Made by a program: the position numbers. Of a DNA stretch of 64,000 nucleotides, positions 37,901-46,900 are shown in pieces; positions within the stretch are counted from its first letter, which is position 1; each line of letters starts with the position of its first letter. The stretch is from NCBI GenBank assembly GCA_036479435.1, contig JAZGFI010000235.1, positions 1 to 64,000 of the forward strand, given 5' to 3'. The DNA is from Planctomycetota bacterium (GTDB lineage Bacteria; Planctomycetota; GCA-002687715; DRQF01).

Positions 37901-40900
37901 GGGGTCCGACTCCAGCGGCACGAGGAGAACGCTCAGGCTGTCGTGGCTTTTCTTCAAGAACACAAATTAGTTGATCGGATCTACTATCCTGGCCTCAGCG
38001 ACCACCCTGGCCACGAAATCCAATGCAAACAGGCAAATGGCTTCGGAGGCATGGTTTCTTTGACCCTCAAGGCGGATCTTGAGGGCACAAAACGGTTTTG
38101 CCAGTCGACCAAGCTCTTTTTCTTGGCTGAGAGCCTAGGAGGGGTCGAATCGTTGCTTGAGCACCCCGCAATCATGACCCACGCCTCGGTTCCGGTCGAA
38201 ACGAGGGCCGAACTTGGCATCCTCGACAACTTCGTTCGCTTGTCCGTTGGCATCGAAAACCAAGATGATCTTCTGAAGGACCTGGACCAAGCGCTCGACT
38301 CCGTCGATAATTAGCCCCCGGTCGTCACCTATAGTGGACGACCGCCGCCTTCGGCGGAGCAGTCGAAAATCATCGAATGCTCACCGGGGGCGGCGAGAAC
38401 AAATTGGTGGGGGCCCAAGGCGTCTTCTGCCCAACTTCTAGTTCCAGTATTCGGAGTCATTCGTGAAGAGTTTTTTGGAAAGCCGAGAGCTGATTCGCCG
38501 CTTGAAAGAAGGTTCCCCAATTGAGGTTGATGGCGAAGTCGTCAGACTTCCTCGCTTCTCAGAAATCCAGGAAGCACAGCCGGGGGATTTTGGTGCCAAG
38601 GGCAAACAGGATTTAATCGTCGCGAAAGCTCGCACTGCGACTTGGTGTGTGTGGCCACTTAACCGGCGCGCGAAGTTTCAAAAGAAAGACAGCGAGGGCT
38701 TCACCCTAATCTTGAAGGCACTCGAAGAGTCTATTCCTGACAAGCCGGTAGTGGGTTGGGTTTTGACGACGGGTCCGATTGACGACGCCGTCCGAGCCAA
38801 GATGAATGAGGACGGCCACCGCGTTAATCGCGTTCCGCTTTAGTCAGAATCGCCGGCGCGGTGCGTGCGAGTATCGGCATTGTCCGCAACGGAGACTGTC
38901 GATGCCGTAGACCACCGCGCTGCGCGTGGAACGCTGAATAACGAAGGCGTCACCGTTGCTGAGGTCGATGATTTCGGGGCTGTTGTCGGCGGTGAGTTGC
39001 GCCGGGCCCCGAACAATTTCTACCTGCACGACGTCATCGGGCTTCAGCACCAGGTGGTGTAGGAACTCGGTGCAGTTGTTGAAGGCGAGACCCATCCCGG
39101 TTCTGATGACGGTGTTGGTGATACTGCGGAAGTAGGCCGAGCTGCCGAAGGGCGTCGCGGCTACTAAGCCGTCGCCAATGGTCTCGTCGCTCACCATCTT
39201 ATTGTTCACTGCGACGCGAAAGCGAACCGAGCTCCGAACATCTGAGTTGCGAAGGATGATGTCGTTCATTCCACGTAGACGCTTGCCGTCGATGGTGGCG
39301 GTGATCTTCATCAATTCTGTTTTGGCCAGCTCCCCGCTCAAGAAGCGATCCAAGACGAGGGCGTCTTCATGCTCGGGGCATTTGGTGACCGCGCTCGCAT
39401 CGCGCATGCCGAGTTTGGGAACTTCCGGAAACTCTCGTTCGGCACCAATCAAAGTGCCGTCACCGCCGTAAGAAATAAGCAAGTCTGCGGCGTCGAAAGA
39501 ATCGGCGAGTTCGATTCCTCGGGCCTCCAGCAGAGGCTTCAGGATAGCGGCGTTCTTACCCACCAATCCGAATTTCATCGCACACCCCCAATCCGAACGA
39601 CTTACCAGGGATCATTATCGGCCTCCACGCTTTGGGCGCAACCCGCCCCGCGACCTCCCGACGGTGAATTTCAGCGCAACTTGAGGGTGGCGAAACTTAG
39701 GACGCAACAAAGTAGCGAAACGATCCAAAAGCGCAGCACGACTTTTGTTTCCGCGAGGCCCTGGTGCTGGTAGCCGTGGTGGGCGGGAGCTCGAAAAAAA
39801 ATGCGCCGGCCAATCCAGCGGATGCCGACGTAGTCTTGGATCAACACCGAAAAAGCTTCGAAGACGAAAACCCCGCCCGCGATAAGGAAGAGGAGCTCCT
39901 GCTTCGACAAGATTGCCATCGCCCCCAAGCTACCTCCAAGCGCCATTGCACCGGTGTCGCCCATGAACATCTGAGCCGGATATCCATTGAACCACAAAAA
40001 GCCAAAACAGGACCCGACGACTGCCGAGGCGAAGATCGCAATCGCTTGCATGTCATGGGCCGGCATGTAGTCAAAAGCGAAGAACTTAGAGGTTTGGTTG
40101 TTCCACATCATGTACGCGACGACGCCAAAGACCGCAGCGGTGAGGGCTGTCGGTAAGACCGCCAGCCCGTCTAAGCCGTCGGCGAAATTGATCGCGTTGG
40201 TGATCGACACCAGGGCGACAACCACGAATGGCAAGTAGAAGTAGCCGAGGTCGATGGGCCCCAGAATCTCGGGTCTCGGAAAGGGGAAGTAGAGATTGGT
40301 GCGAATCTCCGCGGGGAAGGGCGAGGTGCCGTCAGACAAGATGATCGCGCCAAAGAAAAAGGCGAACAGGGCCTGGAGAAAAAACTTTAGATTACGAGAC
40401 ATCCCGGCGTCACTCGACCCACCCACAACTTTCATCATGTCGTCGACGCAACCAAGCGCTCCGTACCAAAGCACCGTTAAGACCAAGAGGTGTGCCACTC
40501 GGTTCTCAGCTTCGGAGAACAACAAGGTCGCCAAGATGATGCCACCCACGATCAGCAGGCCCCCCATCGTAGGCGTGCCACTTTTCGAGTGGTTGAAGTA
40601 CTCGCCGTAGTCGCGAACCCGATCGCGCATGCCGCGACGGTAGAGCCAGGCCGCTGTCCTGCGTCCAAGGAGAAGCACAAATCCAAACGCGACGATGAAA
40701 GCACCCACGCAACGGACCGAGGCGTACTGAAGAATGCGAAGCGGCGTTTCGCCCAGATTCAGCGGAGCGGACAACAAGTCATAGAGCCACGGCAACATCG
40801 ATCAGCTCTCCTGAGGGGCCGGCCCGGTCGCCGCTAGAGGACCCGAATCTTCGGACCCTGCATCTTGCAGACCATTTCGGGCGGTGAAAATCGCCTCCTT

Positions 40901-43900: not shown

Positions 43901-46900
43901 GAGGTCACTCGCCCCGTAGGCGGCTTCGATCTCGTCAAAAAATCGTCTCGGAAGATAGCGTTCCCGGCGCTGCGGACTCAGCGAAGTTTTCTCAAGGCGA
44001 AGTCGGGTGTCGTTCCAGGCGTCATAGGCGCCGCGTTCGGCCAATCCCGTGCTGTGAATGACGGTGATGTTCTCGTCTTCGAGAAGTCGATTCAGGCCGT
44101 CGATCGTGGCCCGGTTGATCGATCGTGATCCCATCGATCCGCCAACAAAAAAAGCAACACGGTGGTGATTCGGAATCCCGAGTCGCTCGCGGTGCTCTTG
44201 GCGGCTAGCGTTGCCAAATCGAGCGCGAACGGGATAGCCAGCGTGGATCGCCTTGCTTTCGGGAAAAAAGTCGAGCGATTCCCGAAAAGAAACTCCGATC
44301 TTGGTCGCGAAACGCGACAGCAATAGGTTCGCTTTGCCGGGGTGGACGTTTTGTTCGTGCAAATAAATGGGTCGGCGGAGAATCGCCGCCGCCAACACCG
44401 TTGGCACGGACACATAGCCGCCGCTGGCGACGACAACGTCGGGACGAAATCGCCACAGCGTCACGAGCGCACGCAATACTCCTAAGCAAAGGGCGAGGCT
44501 AAAACGCGCAAAGGCGTAAAGACGGCGGGGCGAAACGAAGGGGTGCGCGGACAGGGATAGAAAGGGAATCTCGGCCTTGCCGACCATCTCGTGTTCGGCG
44601 CCACGCGCCGTGCCGAGATAGAGAATCTCTGCCTCCGGTTCACGTTGCCGTAATTCGCGAATGATCGCGAGATTGGGCGTGACGTGTCCTCCGGTCCCTC
44701 CGCCGGTAAAAACAAAACGCTGATTGCGACTCAATTTGGACTCCCCATCGCCCGGCGGAATCTCAGTACGGAGACTCCCTGGCTATGCCGACGCGCAGCC
44801 CCCAGCCTACTGGTCGCCGCCGACGGCTCTTGGGCCTGAAGTTCGCGGCATGAGCCCTCAGGAAATGTCATTCCCAGGGTTGGAGAGGTGTTTGTGTTTG
44901 TTTGGGTTCGCCCCGTTCCTGGTGGATGGCAGGGGGCGAAACTTCGCAACCACCGCCGAGGTCGCGAAGGGCCAGAATAGCCGGGCTGGCGCCGAAAGTG
45001 AAGTGGCTACTCCGTCACTTTCGGGATGACCCCATCTTGGGCATCGAGCTCGGCGTTTAAGCGCCTTCGCTTGGACCAACGCATGATGACCAAAAAGAAA
45101 GTGATCACCGCGATAAAGGCCCCGAATCCAAACTCCATGAGCTTGCCCGGCGGAAACCCGAACCAACTTCGCTGACCCTCTAGCCATTCGGCCTCTAGGC
45201 CCGCGCGATCGACCCCGATCACGGCTTTTAGCGAGAAGTCGAGATCGAAACCGCGACTGAGCAGCTTCAGTAGATCGGGGATGTTGCGTCTTTTGCTGCC
45301 ACGCTCTGCGATGAAACGGACGAGGGACAAGGACTGGACGTAGGCCAGCTGGCTAGCCCCCTCTTCGTCGGGAAAATCCCGTTCGAGTTCGTGAAGCGGA
45401 ATCAGGGAATTTGCGGCGCGGGCCCTTTCCAAGACTTCGTTGCTCCCCCAAAACACTTTTTCACTCGTCCATTGTGCGAGCCCTTCGTTGAGCCAAGTCG
45501 GAATAATGCAGCGCGGGCGGACCCTCATGAGGTGTCCCAAAAAACAGTGCACGAGCTCGTGTTGGAAGATGGTTTCGAGAGTCTCGCGGTGATTCGCGGT
45601 CCAGGCGCGGCTCTTAAGGATAATGAGGTCCTGGAATCCGAAGGCCACCGCCGCGATGTGGTCCGGCTTGGGCCGACCTCCTTCGGCGATGATGTTGGCG
45701 TTGAAGGCCTCGTGATCCCGAAAAAGCCGGACCCGAAGGCGTTGCGGGTAAGAAAACCCTAGTCGTTCCTGGGTTTCTCGCAAGATCCGGGGGTAAAACT
45801 CGCGAATGCGGCGGGCGGCACCCTCCAGGCCGTCCGCCGCCTGAATGTCGAGTGCTTGGGGGTCCGAGGGAGCTTGTTTGAGAAAGGAACCCCGCGCTTC
45901 GGCCCCTTTTTGGCCTGCAGCTGCGGCAACTGGCGGGCCTTGCGGCGGCACGCTCGCCGAAATCGGGGACGAAAGCGCCCACAGCATCGCTAAGACCGAG
46001 ACCGGGACGAAGACGAGTCCCATCAGCGCCGGGCCAAGAGGGCTGTTAGCATGGCGGCCCCTACTCACCATCGAGAGTTTTTGTGTCCTCAACATTCGTA
46101 GCCAAGCTATCAGCCCTTGAGATGTCCGCGCTGGAAAACGCCATGCGCGGCGGCAGTTTTAGTTTCAAAGCCCTGGCCTATGCAGTCTTTAGCGCCAAGG
46201 GTGAAGGGGTTTCCTGTGCTCTTTATAACTCCGGAAAATGCGTGGTGCAGGGCAAAGGTACCGAGCAATTCGTCGCCCATTATCTTCCTAATCACGCGGT
46301 TGCCCTGGAGGCACCCCTAAGGCTGGAAGCCGAGTTCACCCAAACGGTGATCGGCAGCGACGAGTCGGGCAAAGGCGACTATTTTGGACCTCTGGTTACC
46401 GCAGCAGTGGCCTGTGGCCCCGAACACGCGGTACTGCTCGAGGACGTTTTGGTTACCGACAGCAAAAAGATGTCCGCCGGAGCTATTCGGCAGAGCGCCG
46501 CGGGTATTCGCGAGACTCTCGACTACGCGATCGTGGTCATCAATCCCGAGCGCTACAACCAGCTTTACGCCAAGATCGGCAACCTCAACAAGTTGCTCGC
46601 ATGGTGCCACGGCACGGCGATCGAAGAGGTGTTGGAAAAAAGAGACGTCGGCATGCTGGTCGTCGACAAGTTTTGCGACGAGCGAACGCTACTGGCCGGG
46701 TTTAAGCCCAAAGCCAAAACCAAACAATTGGTGCTGCGTCCCAAAGCGGAAAGTAATCCGGCGGTCGGTGCCGCTTCGATTCTCGCCTCGGACGCCTTTA
46801 CACGCGGACTCGAGAAACTTGGGCGCGACAACAATCTCAAGCTGCCGAAGGGCGCCGGCAGCCCCGTCGAAGCCGCGGCGAGGAGGCTGCTCCAATCTCA

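What a model noticed while it worked through the whole genome (the two positions that open the first line are those of the whole stretch)
40802..44734. MurG-HEAT-MurJ fusion: lipid II synthase and flippase in one 1310-aa protein, next to mraY
g03584 encodes a single 1310-residue protein with an N-terminal MurG glycosyltransferase, a HEAT-repeat linker and a C-terminal MurJ flippase, directly upstream of mraY (g03583) and away from the dcw cluster on C18. I read it as a natural covalent coupling of the last cytoplasmic step of peptidoglycan precursor synthesis to lipid II flipping, fixed in this FtsZ-less planctomycete order. It would be a Rosetta-stone fusion arguing that MurG hands lipid II directly to MurJ, and a ready-made single-chain complex for structural work.
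Evidence so far: pfam.tsv: Glyco_transf_28, Glyco_tran_28_C, MurJ on one gene; Swiss-Prot MurG hits cover residues 5-388. 5.8-billion protein search with residues 300-900: 25 clusters of 1243-1338 aa carry PF03033+PF04101+PF03023, 23 of them also PF13646 (HEAT_2); all named sources are Planctomycetota. search_genomes over 121 Planctomycetota genomes: one open frame spanning query 3-1293 in 3 of 4 other members of the order sampled (the 4th, cut by a contig end, spans 302-1197), while outside the order every listed match covers either about 3-400 (MurG) or about 490-1120 (MurJ) only. The PNAS 2023 survey of Mur chimeras (PMC10214165, passages read) lists MurE-MurF, MurG-MurC, MurC-MurB, MurC-Ddl, MurD-FtsW, M [...]
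(Added by a program. Inside this text positions count along the whole contig: contig position 1 is position 1 of the stretch shown here. "Call 12" and the like, gene names such as g00115 and contig names such as C1 are that model's own, and its searches are not shown. The text may have been shortened before it was handed on; [...] marks where a part breaks off. The agent that wrote the report below was given it as the finding of a first reader that could run no searches.)

Follow-up and report, generated by a model that had tools for sequence, protein, structure and literature searches.

The report
Fused lipid II synthase-flippase gene
One gene in this uncultured planctomycete joins the enzyme that completes the cell-wall building block lipid II (MurG) to the transporter that flips it across the membrane (MurJ), and sits directly before the gene for the preceding enzyme (MraY), which suggests that these membrane steps work as one physical unit.

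Summary
The 1310-aa ORF (window 40802-44734, minus strand) is real, but the domain order is MurG, FHA-fold domain, 14-helix MurJ, then a C-terminal HEAT-like solenoid. HEAT is the tail, not the linker. mraY starts 3 nt after its stop. It is the only good murG and murJ found in a 92%-complete genome.

The fusion is not confined to this planctomycete order. The same four-domain protein occurs in Acidobacteriota/Aminicenantes. Their MurG domains form one clade with the planctomycete ones.

A second fusion in another order, MurJ-MurG-HEAT, arose separately in Desulfobacterota.

All of these belong to a wide MurG-HEAT family. The HEAT gene is followed directly by mraY in 77 of 80, 8 of 8 and 20 of 20 loci examined, even where HEAT stands alone.

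A predicted HEAT-MraY complex gives weak support only (0.47 against 0.01 for the best control).

MurG motifs are intact. In MurJ the E. coli R18, R24, D39 and R52 equivalents are kept, but the essential R270 is Val.

My reading: a MraY/MurG/MurJ lipid II unit held together by the HEAT module. Direct substrate hand-off is untested.

My seven searches found no paper describing it. This scan has noted the same architecture before on other DNA.

The parts
40802..44734 (-). Whole ORF, 1310 aa, TTG start: MurG, FHA-fold, MurJ, HEAT-like tail
   Evidence: Contigs of 3 runs cover it with no differences.
43571..44722 (-). MurG (GT28) domain, residues about 5-388
   Evidence: PF03033 and PF04101. TIGR01133 scores 221 bits, below its cut-off of 250.25. 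It aligns to solved MurG 3s2u and 1f0k at E about 1e-29, with GGTGGH, GGYVS, HEQN, GGSxGS, the Glu of the C-domain helix and HQxxNA all present.
43229..43546 (-). FHA-fold domain, residues about 397-502, about 10 residues before MurJ TM1
   Evidence: AlphaFold2 model pLDDT 89.1, all-beta. Foldseek top hits are FHA domains: EmbR 2ff4 E 4.2e-5, GarA/OdhI, FhaA including 3oun, YscD. Profile A4 matches the FHA of Slr1951 at E 6.1e-5 and of EmbR at 1.2e-3. Canonical pThr-binding residues are not kept.
41666..43210 (-). MurJ (MOP flippase) domain, residues 509-1023
   Evidence: TIGR01695 scores 275.7 bits (cut-off 235.55) over model positions 2-505 of 506. Solved MurJ 7waw E 9.5e-38. R524, R530, D545 and R558 correspond to E. 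coli R18, R24, D39 and R52; V778 stands at E. coli R270.
40847..41551 (-). HEAT-like alpha-solenoid, residues about 1062-1296, homologous to the tail of MurG-HEAT proteins and to stand-alone HEAT proteins encoded upstream of mraY
   Evidence: Model pLDDT 92.8, 14 helices. Foldseek hits are alphaRep/HEAT-like repeats at E 1e-4. BLASTP to the P0116 tail: 35% identity, E 2e-33. Invariant W, G, F-RR, D-Y-E columns across 81 sequences.
39671..40798 (-). mraY, 375 aa, starts 3 nt after the fusion's stop
   Evidence: mraY follows the HEAT-bearing gene in 77 of 80, 8 of 8 and 20 of 20 related loci.
45007..46095 (-). Upstream Peptidase_MA_2 gene with a C-terminal hydrophobic segment; a possible conserved neighbour, not shown to belong to the unit
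   Evidence: Pfam E 2.5e-16. A homologue lies upstream of the fusion in 6 of the 14 planctomycete-type loci (L005, L007, L010, L013, L017, L018).

Best explanation
The ORF encodes one inner-membrane protein with four domains. MurG, the glycosyltransferase that makes lipid II, and an FHA-fold adaptor lie on the cytoplasmic side. The adaptor is tethered about 10 residues before TM1 of a full 14-helix MurJ flippase. MurJ's cytoplasmic C-terminus continues into a HEAT-like solenoid. The gene is probably translationally coupled to mraY, the lipid I synthase.

It is the genome's only MurG and MurJ found, so it most likely both completes lipid II and flips it.

In evolutionary terms it is a MurG-HEAT protein into which FHA plus MurJ was inserted. 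The HEAT module is the part that always travels with mraY, and it most likely docks on MraY. MraY, MurG and MurJ would then sit together, and lipid I and lipid II would have only a short lateral path between active sites and the flippase portal.

Shown: the architecture, motif conservation, sole-copy status in this assembly, distribution, independent fusions, and the linkage of the HEAT gene to mraY.

Inferred: topology (from the known N-in/C-in topology of MurJ), both activities, HEAT-MraY binding, and any channelling.
For: Architecture and motifs:
- Domain architecture.
- Sole copy: the only other own-genome matches are a Wzx-like Polysacc_synt protein beside a GT2 gene and an MGDG-synthase-like GT.
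- MurG motifs are intact.
- The MurJ R18, R24, D39 and R52 equivalents are kept in 42 of 42 planctomycete-type homologues.

Conservation:
- Of the 120 hits, 96 have the MurG-before-MurJ order, down to 28% identity.
- 20 of 22 other genomes of the order carry it.
- 9 of 301 genomes of the Acidobacteriota-titled phylum carry it.
- The FHA-like linker is homologous in both groups (hhalign probability 98.3, E 1.6e-14).

Independent fusions:
- In the MurG-domain tree the two insertion-type groups form one clade (support 99). The 9 MurJ-MurG-HEAT loci fall in a separate Desulfobacterota clade, together with 2 loci cut at contig ends.

HEAT gene followed by mraY:
- 77 of 80 loci, 8 of 8 and 20 of 20 planctomycete loci where HEAT is not fused to MurG.

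Predicted complex of MraY with the HEAT domain:
- Weak support, score 0.47 (runs 0.45, 0.50, 0.47), best of 3 controls 0.01.
- The mark was reached by 116 of 157 solved complexes and 2 of 215 mismatched pairs. At 0.60 or under it was reached by only 18 of those 157 and by both passing mismatches.
- The runs agree in at least 84% of contacts and the partner's pLDDT is at least 81.
- My own alignments were used, so these counts hold only roughly.
Against: - E. coli R270, called essential (PMC13712586, passages read), is Val here. It is non-Arg in 41 of 42 planctomycete-type and 48 of 50 Aminicenantes-type homologues. D25 is Thr in the window protein.
- TIGR01133 (murG) scores 221 bits, below its curated cut-off of 250.25.
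- The window's own HEAT_2 score (26.5) is just under Pfam's 27.7.
- The complex prediction is only a weak pass. By the tool's own calibration such a pass is more often wrong than right unless the guess was likely beforehand.
- In two loci of one genus (L009, L011) no mraY lies within 1.4-2.1 kb downstream.
- No expression, activity or binding data exist. A fusion shows co-expression and proximity, not channelling.
- The genome is 92% complete, so a second murG or murJ cannot be excluded.
Confidence: 0.78

Rival explanations
1. The fusion only fixes stoichiometry and co-localisation. Both halves work as ordinary MurG and MurJ, and lipid II diffuses freely in the membrane along affinity gradients as proposed for E. 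coli. The HEAT tail binds something other than MraY, such as Mur ligases, a cytoskeletal protein or a regulator.
For: - The native-MS work on separate E. coli enzymes explains passage by affinity alone (PMC9046198, passages read).
- The survey of Mur chimeras notes fusions of non-consecutive enzymes, for which channelling cannot hold (PMC10214165, passages read).
- The HEAT-MraY prediction is only a weak pass.
Against: - MurJ was joined to MurG-HEAT at least twice, in different orders.
- The HEAT gene stays directly upstream of mraY even when it is not fused to MurG: 20 of 20 loci, plus L019 and L023.
- Controls for the complex scored 0.00-0.01.
Confidence: 0.3
2. The MurJ-like domain no longer flips lipid II, since it lacks the R270 equivalent. 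It serves as a membrane anchor or scaffold for MurG, and another protein flips lipid II.
For: - V778 stands at the R270 position and T531 at D25.
- R270 is non-Arg in 41 of 42 and 48 of 50 homologues of the two groups.
- R24 and R270 are stated to be essential in E. coli.
Against: - TIGR01695 is matched over its full length and above its equivalog cut-off.
- The R18, R24, D39 and R52 equivalents are kept in 42 of 42 planctomycete-type homologues.
- 41 of 50 Aminicenantes-type proteins have Arg one helical turn later, at the E273 position.
- No other MurJ was found in the genome. The only other MOP hit is Wzx-like and sits beside a GT2 gene.
- Strong conservation across 14 helices down to 28% identity is more than an anchor would need.
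Confidence: 0.08
3. The protein handles a lipid-linked glycan other than the peptidoglycan precursor.
For: - The MurG score is below the NCBIfam cut-off.
- The partnered MraY family differs from E. coli at 19 positions that are conserved within the family, including the third His of HHH.
Against: - The MraY equivalog model is passed (270.6 against 192).
- The UDP-GlcNAc and acceptor motifs of MurG are intact.
- murE-like, murF and two SEDS genes are present elsewhere, and there is no other murG, murJ or mraY-type partner to serve them.
Confidence: 0.04
4. An assembly or gene-calling artefact: two or three adjacent genes read as one.
For: None found.
Against: - There are no stops in 1310 codons.
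- The sequence is identical in contigs of runs from two studies.
- The same colinear architecture occurs in 95 other protein clusters and in 13 + 8 full-length loci from independent assemblies.
Confidence: 0.01

Closest known systems
Separate MraY, MurG and MurJ of E. coli (dcw cluster; structures 1F0K, 6CC4)
   Same: The same three catalytic families. MurG motifs and four of five checked MurJ cavity residues are conserved. Presumably the same reactions are carried out.
   Different: Here MurG and MurJ are one polypeptide with FHA and HEAT domains added. mraY follows directly, whereas E. coli has mraY-murD-ftsW-murG and murJ elsewhere. The R270 equivalent is lost. The MurG score is below the equivalog cut-off.
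Natural Mur chimeras (MurE-MurF, MurG-MurC, MurC-MurB, MurC-Ddl, MurD-FtsW, MraY-MurG), surveyed in PMC10214165 (passages read)
   Same: Single ORFs joining two peptidoglycan-precursor enzymes; used as an argument for a Mur complex.
   Different: No MurG-MurJ type is named in the passages read. This fusion joins an enzyme to the transporter of its product and carries two non-catalytic adaptor domains. The paper's supplements were not read.
MurG-HEAT proteins of about 690-780 aa encoded directly upstream of mraY (e.g. Desulfacinum infernum DSM 9756, locus L070; Syntrophobacteraceae)
   Same: Homologous MurG domain (39% identity) and HEAT domain (35% identity, E 2e-33). Same mraY neighbour.
   Different: They lack FHA and MurJ. 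In some, murJ is a separate gene directly upstream (L021, L032, L036, L043) or directly after mraY (L055, L056, L060, L074).
MurJ-MurG-HEAT fusions of Desulfobacterota (L024, L025, L028, L030, L035, L039, L052, L064, L077; P0099)
   Same: The same three families in one ORF, followed by mraY.
   Different: MurJ is N-terminal, there is no FHA domain, and R270 is kept in 10 of 10. They form a separate clade in the MurG tree, so they arose independently.
Mycobacterial MurJ (MviN, Rv3910) with FhaA (PDB 3oun; PMC6180346, passages read)
   Same: An FHA fold associated with the cytoplasmic side of MurJ. 3oun is among the structural matches of the linker model.
   Different: In the mycobacterial system FhaA is a separate protein that reads a phosphothreonine on MurJ's pseudokinase domain. 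Here the FHA fold is covalently N-terminal to MurJ, no pseudokinase domain was found by Pfam, and the canonical pThr-binding residues are replaced.

Membership tests
MurG (GT28, TIGR01133) | Two-domain GT-B fold with PF03033 and PF04101 | tested here: met
   E 7.4e-32 and 6.9e-22, both above the gathering score.
MurG (GT28, TIGR01133) | Conserved G-loops and donor/acceptor motifs seen in solved MurG (motif names recalled; positions read from the alignment) | tested here: met
   GGTGGH (10-17), GGYVS, HEQN, GGSMGS, the Glu in RAGAGAIME and HQLANA align to 3s2u and 1f0k.
MurG (GT28, TIGR01133) | NCBIfam equivalog cut-off | tested here: not met
   221 bits (224.9 in the genome search) against 250.25. 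An insertion in the C-domain, shared with MurG-HEAT proteins, is visible.
MurG (GT28, TIGR01133) | Lipid I to lipid II transferase activity | not testable with these tools
   Needs an enzyme assay or complementation.
MurJ (MOP superfamily, TIGR01695) | Full-length match above the equivalog cut-off, covering all 14 helices | tested here: met
   275.7 bits against 235.55, model positions 2-505 of 506. Solved MurJ chains at E 1e-37 to 1e-24.
MurJ (MOP superfamily, TIGR01695) | Cavity residues R18, R24, D39 and R52 (E. coli numbering) | tested here: met
   R524, R530, D545 and R558; 42 of 42 in planctomycete-type homologues.
MurJ (MOP superfamily, TIGR01695) | R270 (TM8), stated essential in E. 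coli | tested here: not met
   V778; non-Arg in 41 of 42 and 48 of 50 homologues. Essentiality from PMC13712586 passages.
MurJ (MOP superfamily, TIGR01695) | Lipid II flipping | not testable with these tools
   Needs an in vivo flippase assay.
FHA domain | Beta-sandwich FHA fold | tested here: met
   pLDDT 89.1. Foldseek finds FHA domains at E 4e-5 to 1e-3, TM about 0.6. Profile against PDB sequences: E 6.1e-5.
FHA domain | Phosphothreonine-binding residues (Arg of GR, Ser/His of SxxH, Asn of NG; recalled) | tested here: not met
   In the alignment to EmbR these positions read H/S/A, Q/R with R, and R in the planctomycete group. The Aminicenantes group has a different set.
HEAT repeats (PF13646, PF02985) | Alpha-solenoid of paired helices | tested here: met
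   14 helices, pLDDT 92.8. Best structural matches are alphaRep/HEAT-like repeats, CpcE/F and PP2A PR65.
HEAT repeats (PF13646, PF02985) | Pfam gathering score in this protein | tested here: not met
   26.5 against 27.7 and 21.6 against 23.5. Homologous tails in other loci pass.
Natural Mur chimeras (PMC10214165) | One ORF joining two peptidoglycan-pathway proteins | tested here: met
Natural Mur chimeras (PMC10214165) | Belongs to one of the chimera types listed there | tested here: not met
   The passages read list MurE-MurF, MurG-MurC, MurC-MurB, MurC-Ddl, MurD-FtsW and MraY-MurG only. The supplements were not read.
HEAT module paired with mraY (family defined here and in earlier notes of this scan) | HEAT domain with the W..RNxGxKLxG, GFxRRN and DPYxEVR motifs, encoded directly upstream of mraY | tested here: met
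   Motifs. mraY lies 3 nt downstream. The same arrangement holds in 77 of 80, 8 of 8 and 20 of 20 loci.

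The most novel reading that the evidence does not exclude
The HEAT module is a dedicated MraY-docking adaptor that builds a hard-wired lipid II factory. 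MraY, MurG and MurJ would form a stoichiometric complex in which lipid I and lipid II pass from site to site and into the flippase portal without release into the bulk membrane. The FHA fold tethered to TM1 and the HEAT tail tethered to TM14 would hold MurG over the portal. The family-wide loss of the R270 equivalent would reflect an altered substrate-loading route made possible by this direct delivery.
Probability: 0.25. Interest if true: 0.85.

Novelty: new variant of a known kind. Interest (0 to 1): 0.68.

Why it matters
It is an open question whether the membrane steps of peptidoglycan precursor synthesis form a physical complex, or only pass lipids along affinity gradients as proposed for the separate E. 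coli enzymes.

This family bears on that question in three ways:
- It gives natural single-chain MurG-MurJ proteins in two independent domain orders.
- It contains a conserved helical-repeat module that always accompanies MraY.
- It has one cultured organism with the simpler MurG-HEAT form, Desulfacinum infernum (L070).

These are ready material for co-purification, cryo-EM and flux assays of a MraY-MurG-MurJ unit.

The family also shows that a MurJ lacking the 'essential' R270 is the rule in two lineages. That bears on the transport mechanism of a flippase that is an antibiotic and phage-lysis target.

Tried and rejected
- A Kyte-Doolittle scan for helices was too coarse to count the 14 helices. 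I relied on full-length coverage of TIGR01695 instead.
- The first HEAT alignment A1 was too diverse for the search for related loci. A smaller one, A2, worked.
- The HEAT profile against 1.84 billion representatives is inflated by generic HEAT repeats: 47,892 hits at E <= 0.001, and 67 of the best 150 are long multi-repeat proteins. It gives no clean census.
- No RNA holder was listed for the stretch, so nothing can be said on expression.
- Run X7 covers the stretch only in pieces.
- Papers: searches found no description of a MurG-MurJ fusion, of MurG with a HEAT domain, or of a HEAT partner of MraY. One search failed on a term with a slash and was re-sent.
I obtained a genome handle first.
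- The idea that the FHA domain is a phospho-reader like FhaA was considered and set aside, because the binding residues are not kept.
- The idea that loss of R270 is specific to fusion was set aside. 5 of 7 unfused neighbouring murJ genes also lack Arg there, though most of these are weak MurJ matches.

Full report
**The observation**

The window holds a stop-free ORF at exactly 40802-44734 on the minus strand: 1310 codons from a TTG.

| Domain | Pfam | NCBIfam |
|---|---|---|
| MurG | Glyco_transf_28 at 7-147; Glyco_tran_28_C at 194-367 | murG over 5-377, 221 bits, below its cut-off of 250.25 |
| Linker | weak Yop-YscD_cpl (an FHA-type family) at 410-494 | none |
| MurJ | MurJ at 538-980 | murJ over 509-1023, 275.7 bits, above its cut-off of 235.55, model positions 2-505 of 506 |
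| Tail | HEAT_2/HEAT at 1132-1179 | none |

So the order is MurG, FHA-like, MurJ, HEAT. The ORF, its length and its neighbour are right.

mraY (39671-40798; TIGR00445 270.6 bits against 192) begins 3 nt after the fusion's stop, with AGGAG 12 nt upstream of its ATG. Contigs from three runs of two studies span 39671-44734 without any difference or gap. Some of these may be the source of the assembly, so this is only partly independent support.

**The parts**

*MurG.* The N-terminal 400 residues align to solved MurG of P. aeruginosa and E. coli at E about 1e-29. GGTGGH, GGYVS, HEQN, GGSxGS, the C-domain Glu and HQxxNA are all in place.

*MurJ.*
- The domain aligns to solved MurJ chains at E 1e-37 to 1e-24.
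- I fetched E. coli K-12 MurJ and aligned it with 110 homologues.
- The equivalents of R18, R24, D39 and R52 are R524, R530, D545 and R558. They are kept in 42 of 42 planctomycete-type proteins.
- The R270 position is V778. It is non-Arg in 41 of 42 planctomycete-type and 48 of 50 Aminicenantes-type proteins. The latter have Arg at the E273 position in 41 of 50.
- R24 and R270 are described as essential cavity arginines in E. coli (PMC13712586, passages read). This is a real departure from the family rule.

*Linker.*
- I folded residues 385-510 with 13 homologous rows. The model has pLDDT 89.1 and is all-beta.
- Its best structural matches are FHA domains: EmbR at E 4.2e-5, GarA/OdhI, FhaA (including entry 3oun with the mycobacterial MurJ intracellular domain) and YscD.
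- A sequence profile of the linker finds FHA domains at E 6.1e-5.
- The residues that bind phosphothreonine in classical FHA domains (recalled) are replaced. I read it as an FHA-fold adaptor, not a phospho-reader.

*Tail.* The model of residues 1060-1310 (81 rows) has pLDDT 92.8 and 14 helices. It matches HEAT-like alphaRep repeats.

**Sole copy and genome context**

The only other MurJ-model and MurG-model matches in the 92%-complete, 299-contig genome are:
- a Wzx-like Polysacc_synt protein beside a GT2 gene;
- an MGDG-synthase-like glycosyltransferase.

No ftsZ was found. On contig C18, murE-like and murF genes are followed directly by a SEDS gene, with no mraY or murG between them.

**Distribution**

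*Protein search.* A full-length search gave 120 hits. By domain order:

| Architecture | Count |
|---|---|
| MurG before MurJ (including the window's own protein) | 96 |
| MurJ-MurG-HEAT | 1 |
| MurG-HEAT, about 720-794 aa | 20 |
| MurG-MurC types | 2 |
| MurJ with another domain | 1 |

Named sources are Planctomycetota, but also Candidatus Aminicenantes and Acidobacteriota.

*Planctomycetota.* In 401 genomes, the tail found strong matches in 20 of 22 other genomes of the window's order. 16 of these lie in frames of 1305 aa or more. The other four lie in shorter frames that I did not examine. Outside the order there were only weak matches, in 40 of 378 genomes.

*Acidobacteriota.* In 301 genomes of the phylum that holds L055 (titled Acidobacteriota), nine carry the full-span fusion. 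Three unpublished genomes count only in the denominator.

*Shared origin.* The linker of these Aminicenantes-type proteins is homologous to the planctomycete one (hhalign probability 98.3, E 1.6e-14). The whole four-domain architecture is therefore shared.

**The HEAT tail is the key to the family**

The tail of the window protein aligns to the tail of about 720-aa MurG-HEAT proteins at 35% identity, E 2e-33. The motifs W..RNxGxKLxG, GFxRRN and DPYxEVR are shared.

A scan of species-representative genomes with a HEAT alignment found 255 relatives among 277 matched stretches. I examined the best 80:

| Architecture in the locus | Count | Notes |
|---|---|---|
| MurG-FHA-MurJ-HEAT | 13 full + 1 cut | all titled Planctomycetota-type MAGs |
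| MurJ-MurG-HEAT in one frame | 9 | Deltaproteobacteria, Syntrophobacterales, Desulfobacterales; confirmed by Pfam, |
| MurG-HEAT | 52 | two of them cut at a contig end |
| HEAT without MurG in the same frame | 5 | |

mraY lies directly downstream in 77 of the 80 loci. The exceptions are L009 and L011, of one genus, and the truncated L067.

- All 8 Aminicenantes-type loci also have mraY next.
- I then fetched 20 of the 40 weaker planctomycete matches outside the order, chosen among the stronger ones; the other 20 were not examined. There HEAT is a stand-alone 227-301-aa protein, or the tail of a 657-684-aa protein with no MurG domain. All 20 are followed directly by mraY.
- The conserved core is therefore a HEAT gene followed by mraY. 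MurG, and then MurJ, were added to it.

**Independent fusions**

I built a FastTree of 84 MurG domains with E. coli as outgroup. It is a quick method with SH-like supports only.
- The 14 planctomycete and 8 Aminicenantes insertion-type proteins fall in one clade (support 99).
- The 9 MurJ-MurG-HEAT proteins, plus the 2 cut loci, fall in a separate clade inside a Desulfobacterota MurG-HEAT group (support 95).

The different domain order points the same way. MurJ was joined to MurG-HEAT at least twice.

In other members murJ is a separate gene. It lies directly upstream in L021, L032, L036 and L043, or directly after mraY in L055, L056, L060 and L074.

**How it most likely works**

E. coli MurJ is known to have both termini in the cytoplasm. 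By that topology MurG, FHA and HEAT all lie in the cytoplasm. This fits MurG's chemistry. It also makes an insertion of MurJ between MurG and HEAT possible without changing the side of the membrane on which either lies.

The FHA fold ends about 10 residues before TM1. The HEAT domain follows TM14 after about 40-50 residues.

My best reading is a MraY/MurG/MurJ unit. HEAT docks on MraY, MurG is held near the flippase entrance, and the lipid intermediates travel a short path.

The only direct test I could run was a predicted complex of MraY with the HEAT domain.
- The verdict was weak support: score 0.47, best of 3 controls 0.01.
- The mark was reached by 116 of 157 solved complexes and 2 of 215 mismatches. 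At 0.60 or under it was reached by only 18 of the 157 and by both passing mismatches.
- The runs agree in at least 84% of contacts and the partner's pLDDT is at least 81.
- My own alignments were used, so the counts hold only roughly.

The gene-order evidence makes the guess likely beforehand, but binding is not shown. Channelling is not shown at all. For the separate E. coli enzymes, affinity gradients suffice to explain passage of lipid II (PMC9046198, passages read).

**Comparison with the known**

- The nearest described kind is the natural Mur chimeras. The passages read in PMC10214165 list MurE-MurF, MurG-MurC, MurC-MurB, MurC-Ddl, MurD-FtsW and MraY-MurG, not MurG-MurJ. Its supplements were not read.
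- Mycobacterial MurJ recruits the separate FHA protein FhaA through a phosphorylated pseudokinase domain (PMC6180346, passages read). That is a resemblance in parts, not in mechanism.
- Seven searches of the paper library found no description of a MurG-MurJ fusion, of MurG-HEAT, or of a HEAT partner of MraY.
- Databases carry only automatic names such as 'MurJ' or 'MurJ/MurG'.

**Earlier notes of this scan**

After reaching the above, I looked up earlier notes. Eight notes on other genomes describe the same family: MurG-FHA-MurJ-HEAT, MurJ-MurG-HEAT, MurG-HEAT with mraY, and a HEAT-partnered MraY subfamily. They agree with my results. They are AI notes, not independent evidence.

One note added a lead on altered MraY motifs, which I checked in part. 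Against E. coli MraY, 73 partnered MraYs share 19 positions where 90% or more agree on a different residue. These include the third His of the HHH motif.

**Verdict**

This is a real, conserved and apparently undescribed natural fusion of lipid II synthase and flippase, and one form of a wider HEAT/MraY-centred family. The domain order and the taxonomic limits do not. Function, binding and channelling remain to be tested.

Noticed in passing
window 39671-40798 (-), and alignment A5: The MraYs that follow a HEAT gene differ from E. coli MraY at 19 positions where 90% or more of 73 members agree on another residue. These include the third His of the HHH motif (AHHG in the window) and several residues in the last cytoplasmic segment.
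   Followed up: partly
window 45007-46095 (-): A Peptidase_MA_2 protein with a C-terminal hydrophobic segment lies upstream of the fusion. A homologue lies upstream in 6 of the 14 planctomycete-type loci (L005, L007, L010, L013, L017, L018). Its role is unknown.
   Followed up: partly
G000 contig C18, about 7600-14600: A dcw remnant: murE-like, murF (9242-10495), then a SEDS gene (10582-11613) only 87 nt later, with no mraY, murD or murG between them.
   Followed up: partly
L108-L112 (Planctomycetota outside the order): Proteins of 657-684 aa with about 430 N-terminal residues that match no Pfam family. They carry the mraY-linked HEAT tail and are followed by mraY. What replaces MurG there is unknown.
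   Followed up: partly
L019, L023, L034: HEAT is encoded without MurG in the same frame: a 311-aa ORF in L019 and a 428-aa ORF with an unknown N-terminal half in L023. In L034 MurG and HEAT lie in adjacent frames, either split or frameshifted. All are followed by mraY.
   Followed up: no
G411:C36 and G512:C3: Frames of 1073 and 1094 aa in two Acidobacteriota-phylum genomes hold both MurG and MurJ matches but are shorter than the usual 1250-1275 aa. They may be variants lacking a domain.
   Followed up: no
alignment A1, P0001 residues about 1113-1130: The HEAT tails of planctomycete fusions and of MurG-HEAT proteins share a 15-16-residue insert (RxPAPxxxRxxGGDFxE) that Aminicenantes-type fusions lack. 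Yet the MurG tree joins the two fusion groups. The explanation is either loss in one group or domain-level recombination.
   Followed up: no
P0001 residues about 228-262 (window about 43949-44053): The MurG C-domain carries an insertion relative to E. coli and P. aeruginosa MurG. The MurG-HEAT protein P0116 has it too. This probably explains why the TIGR01133 score falls below its cut-off.
   Followed up: no
window 46083-46967 (+) and 46981-48978 (+): An RNase_HII-family gene with an N-terminal DUF3378, and a 665-aa Peptidase_M48 protein, lie on the opposite strand upstream.
   Followed up: no
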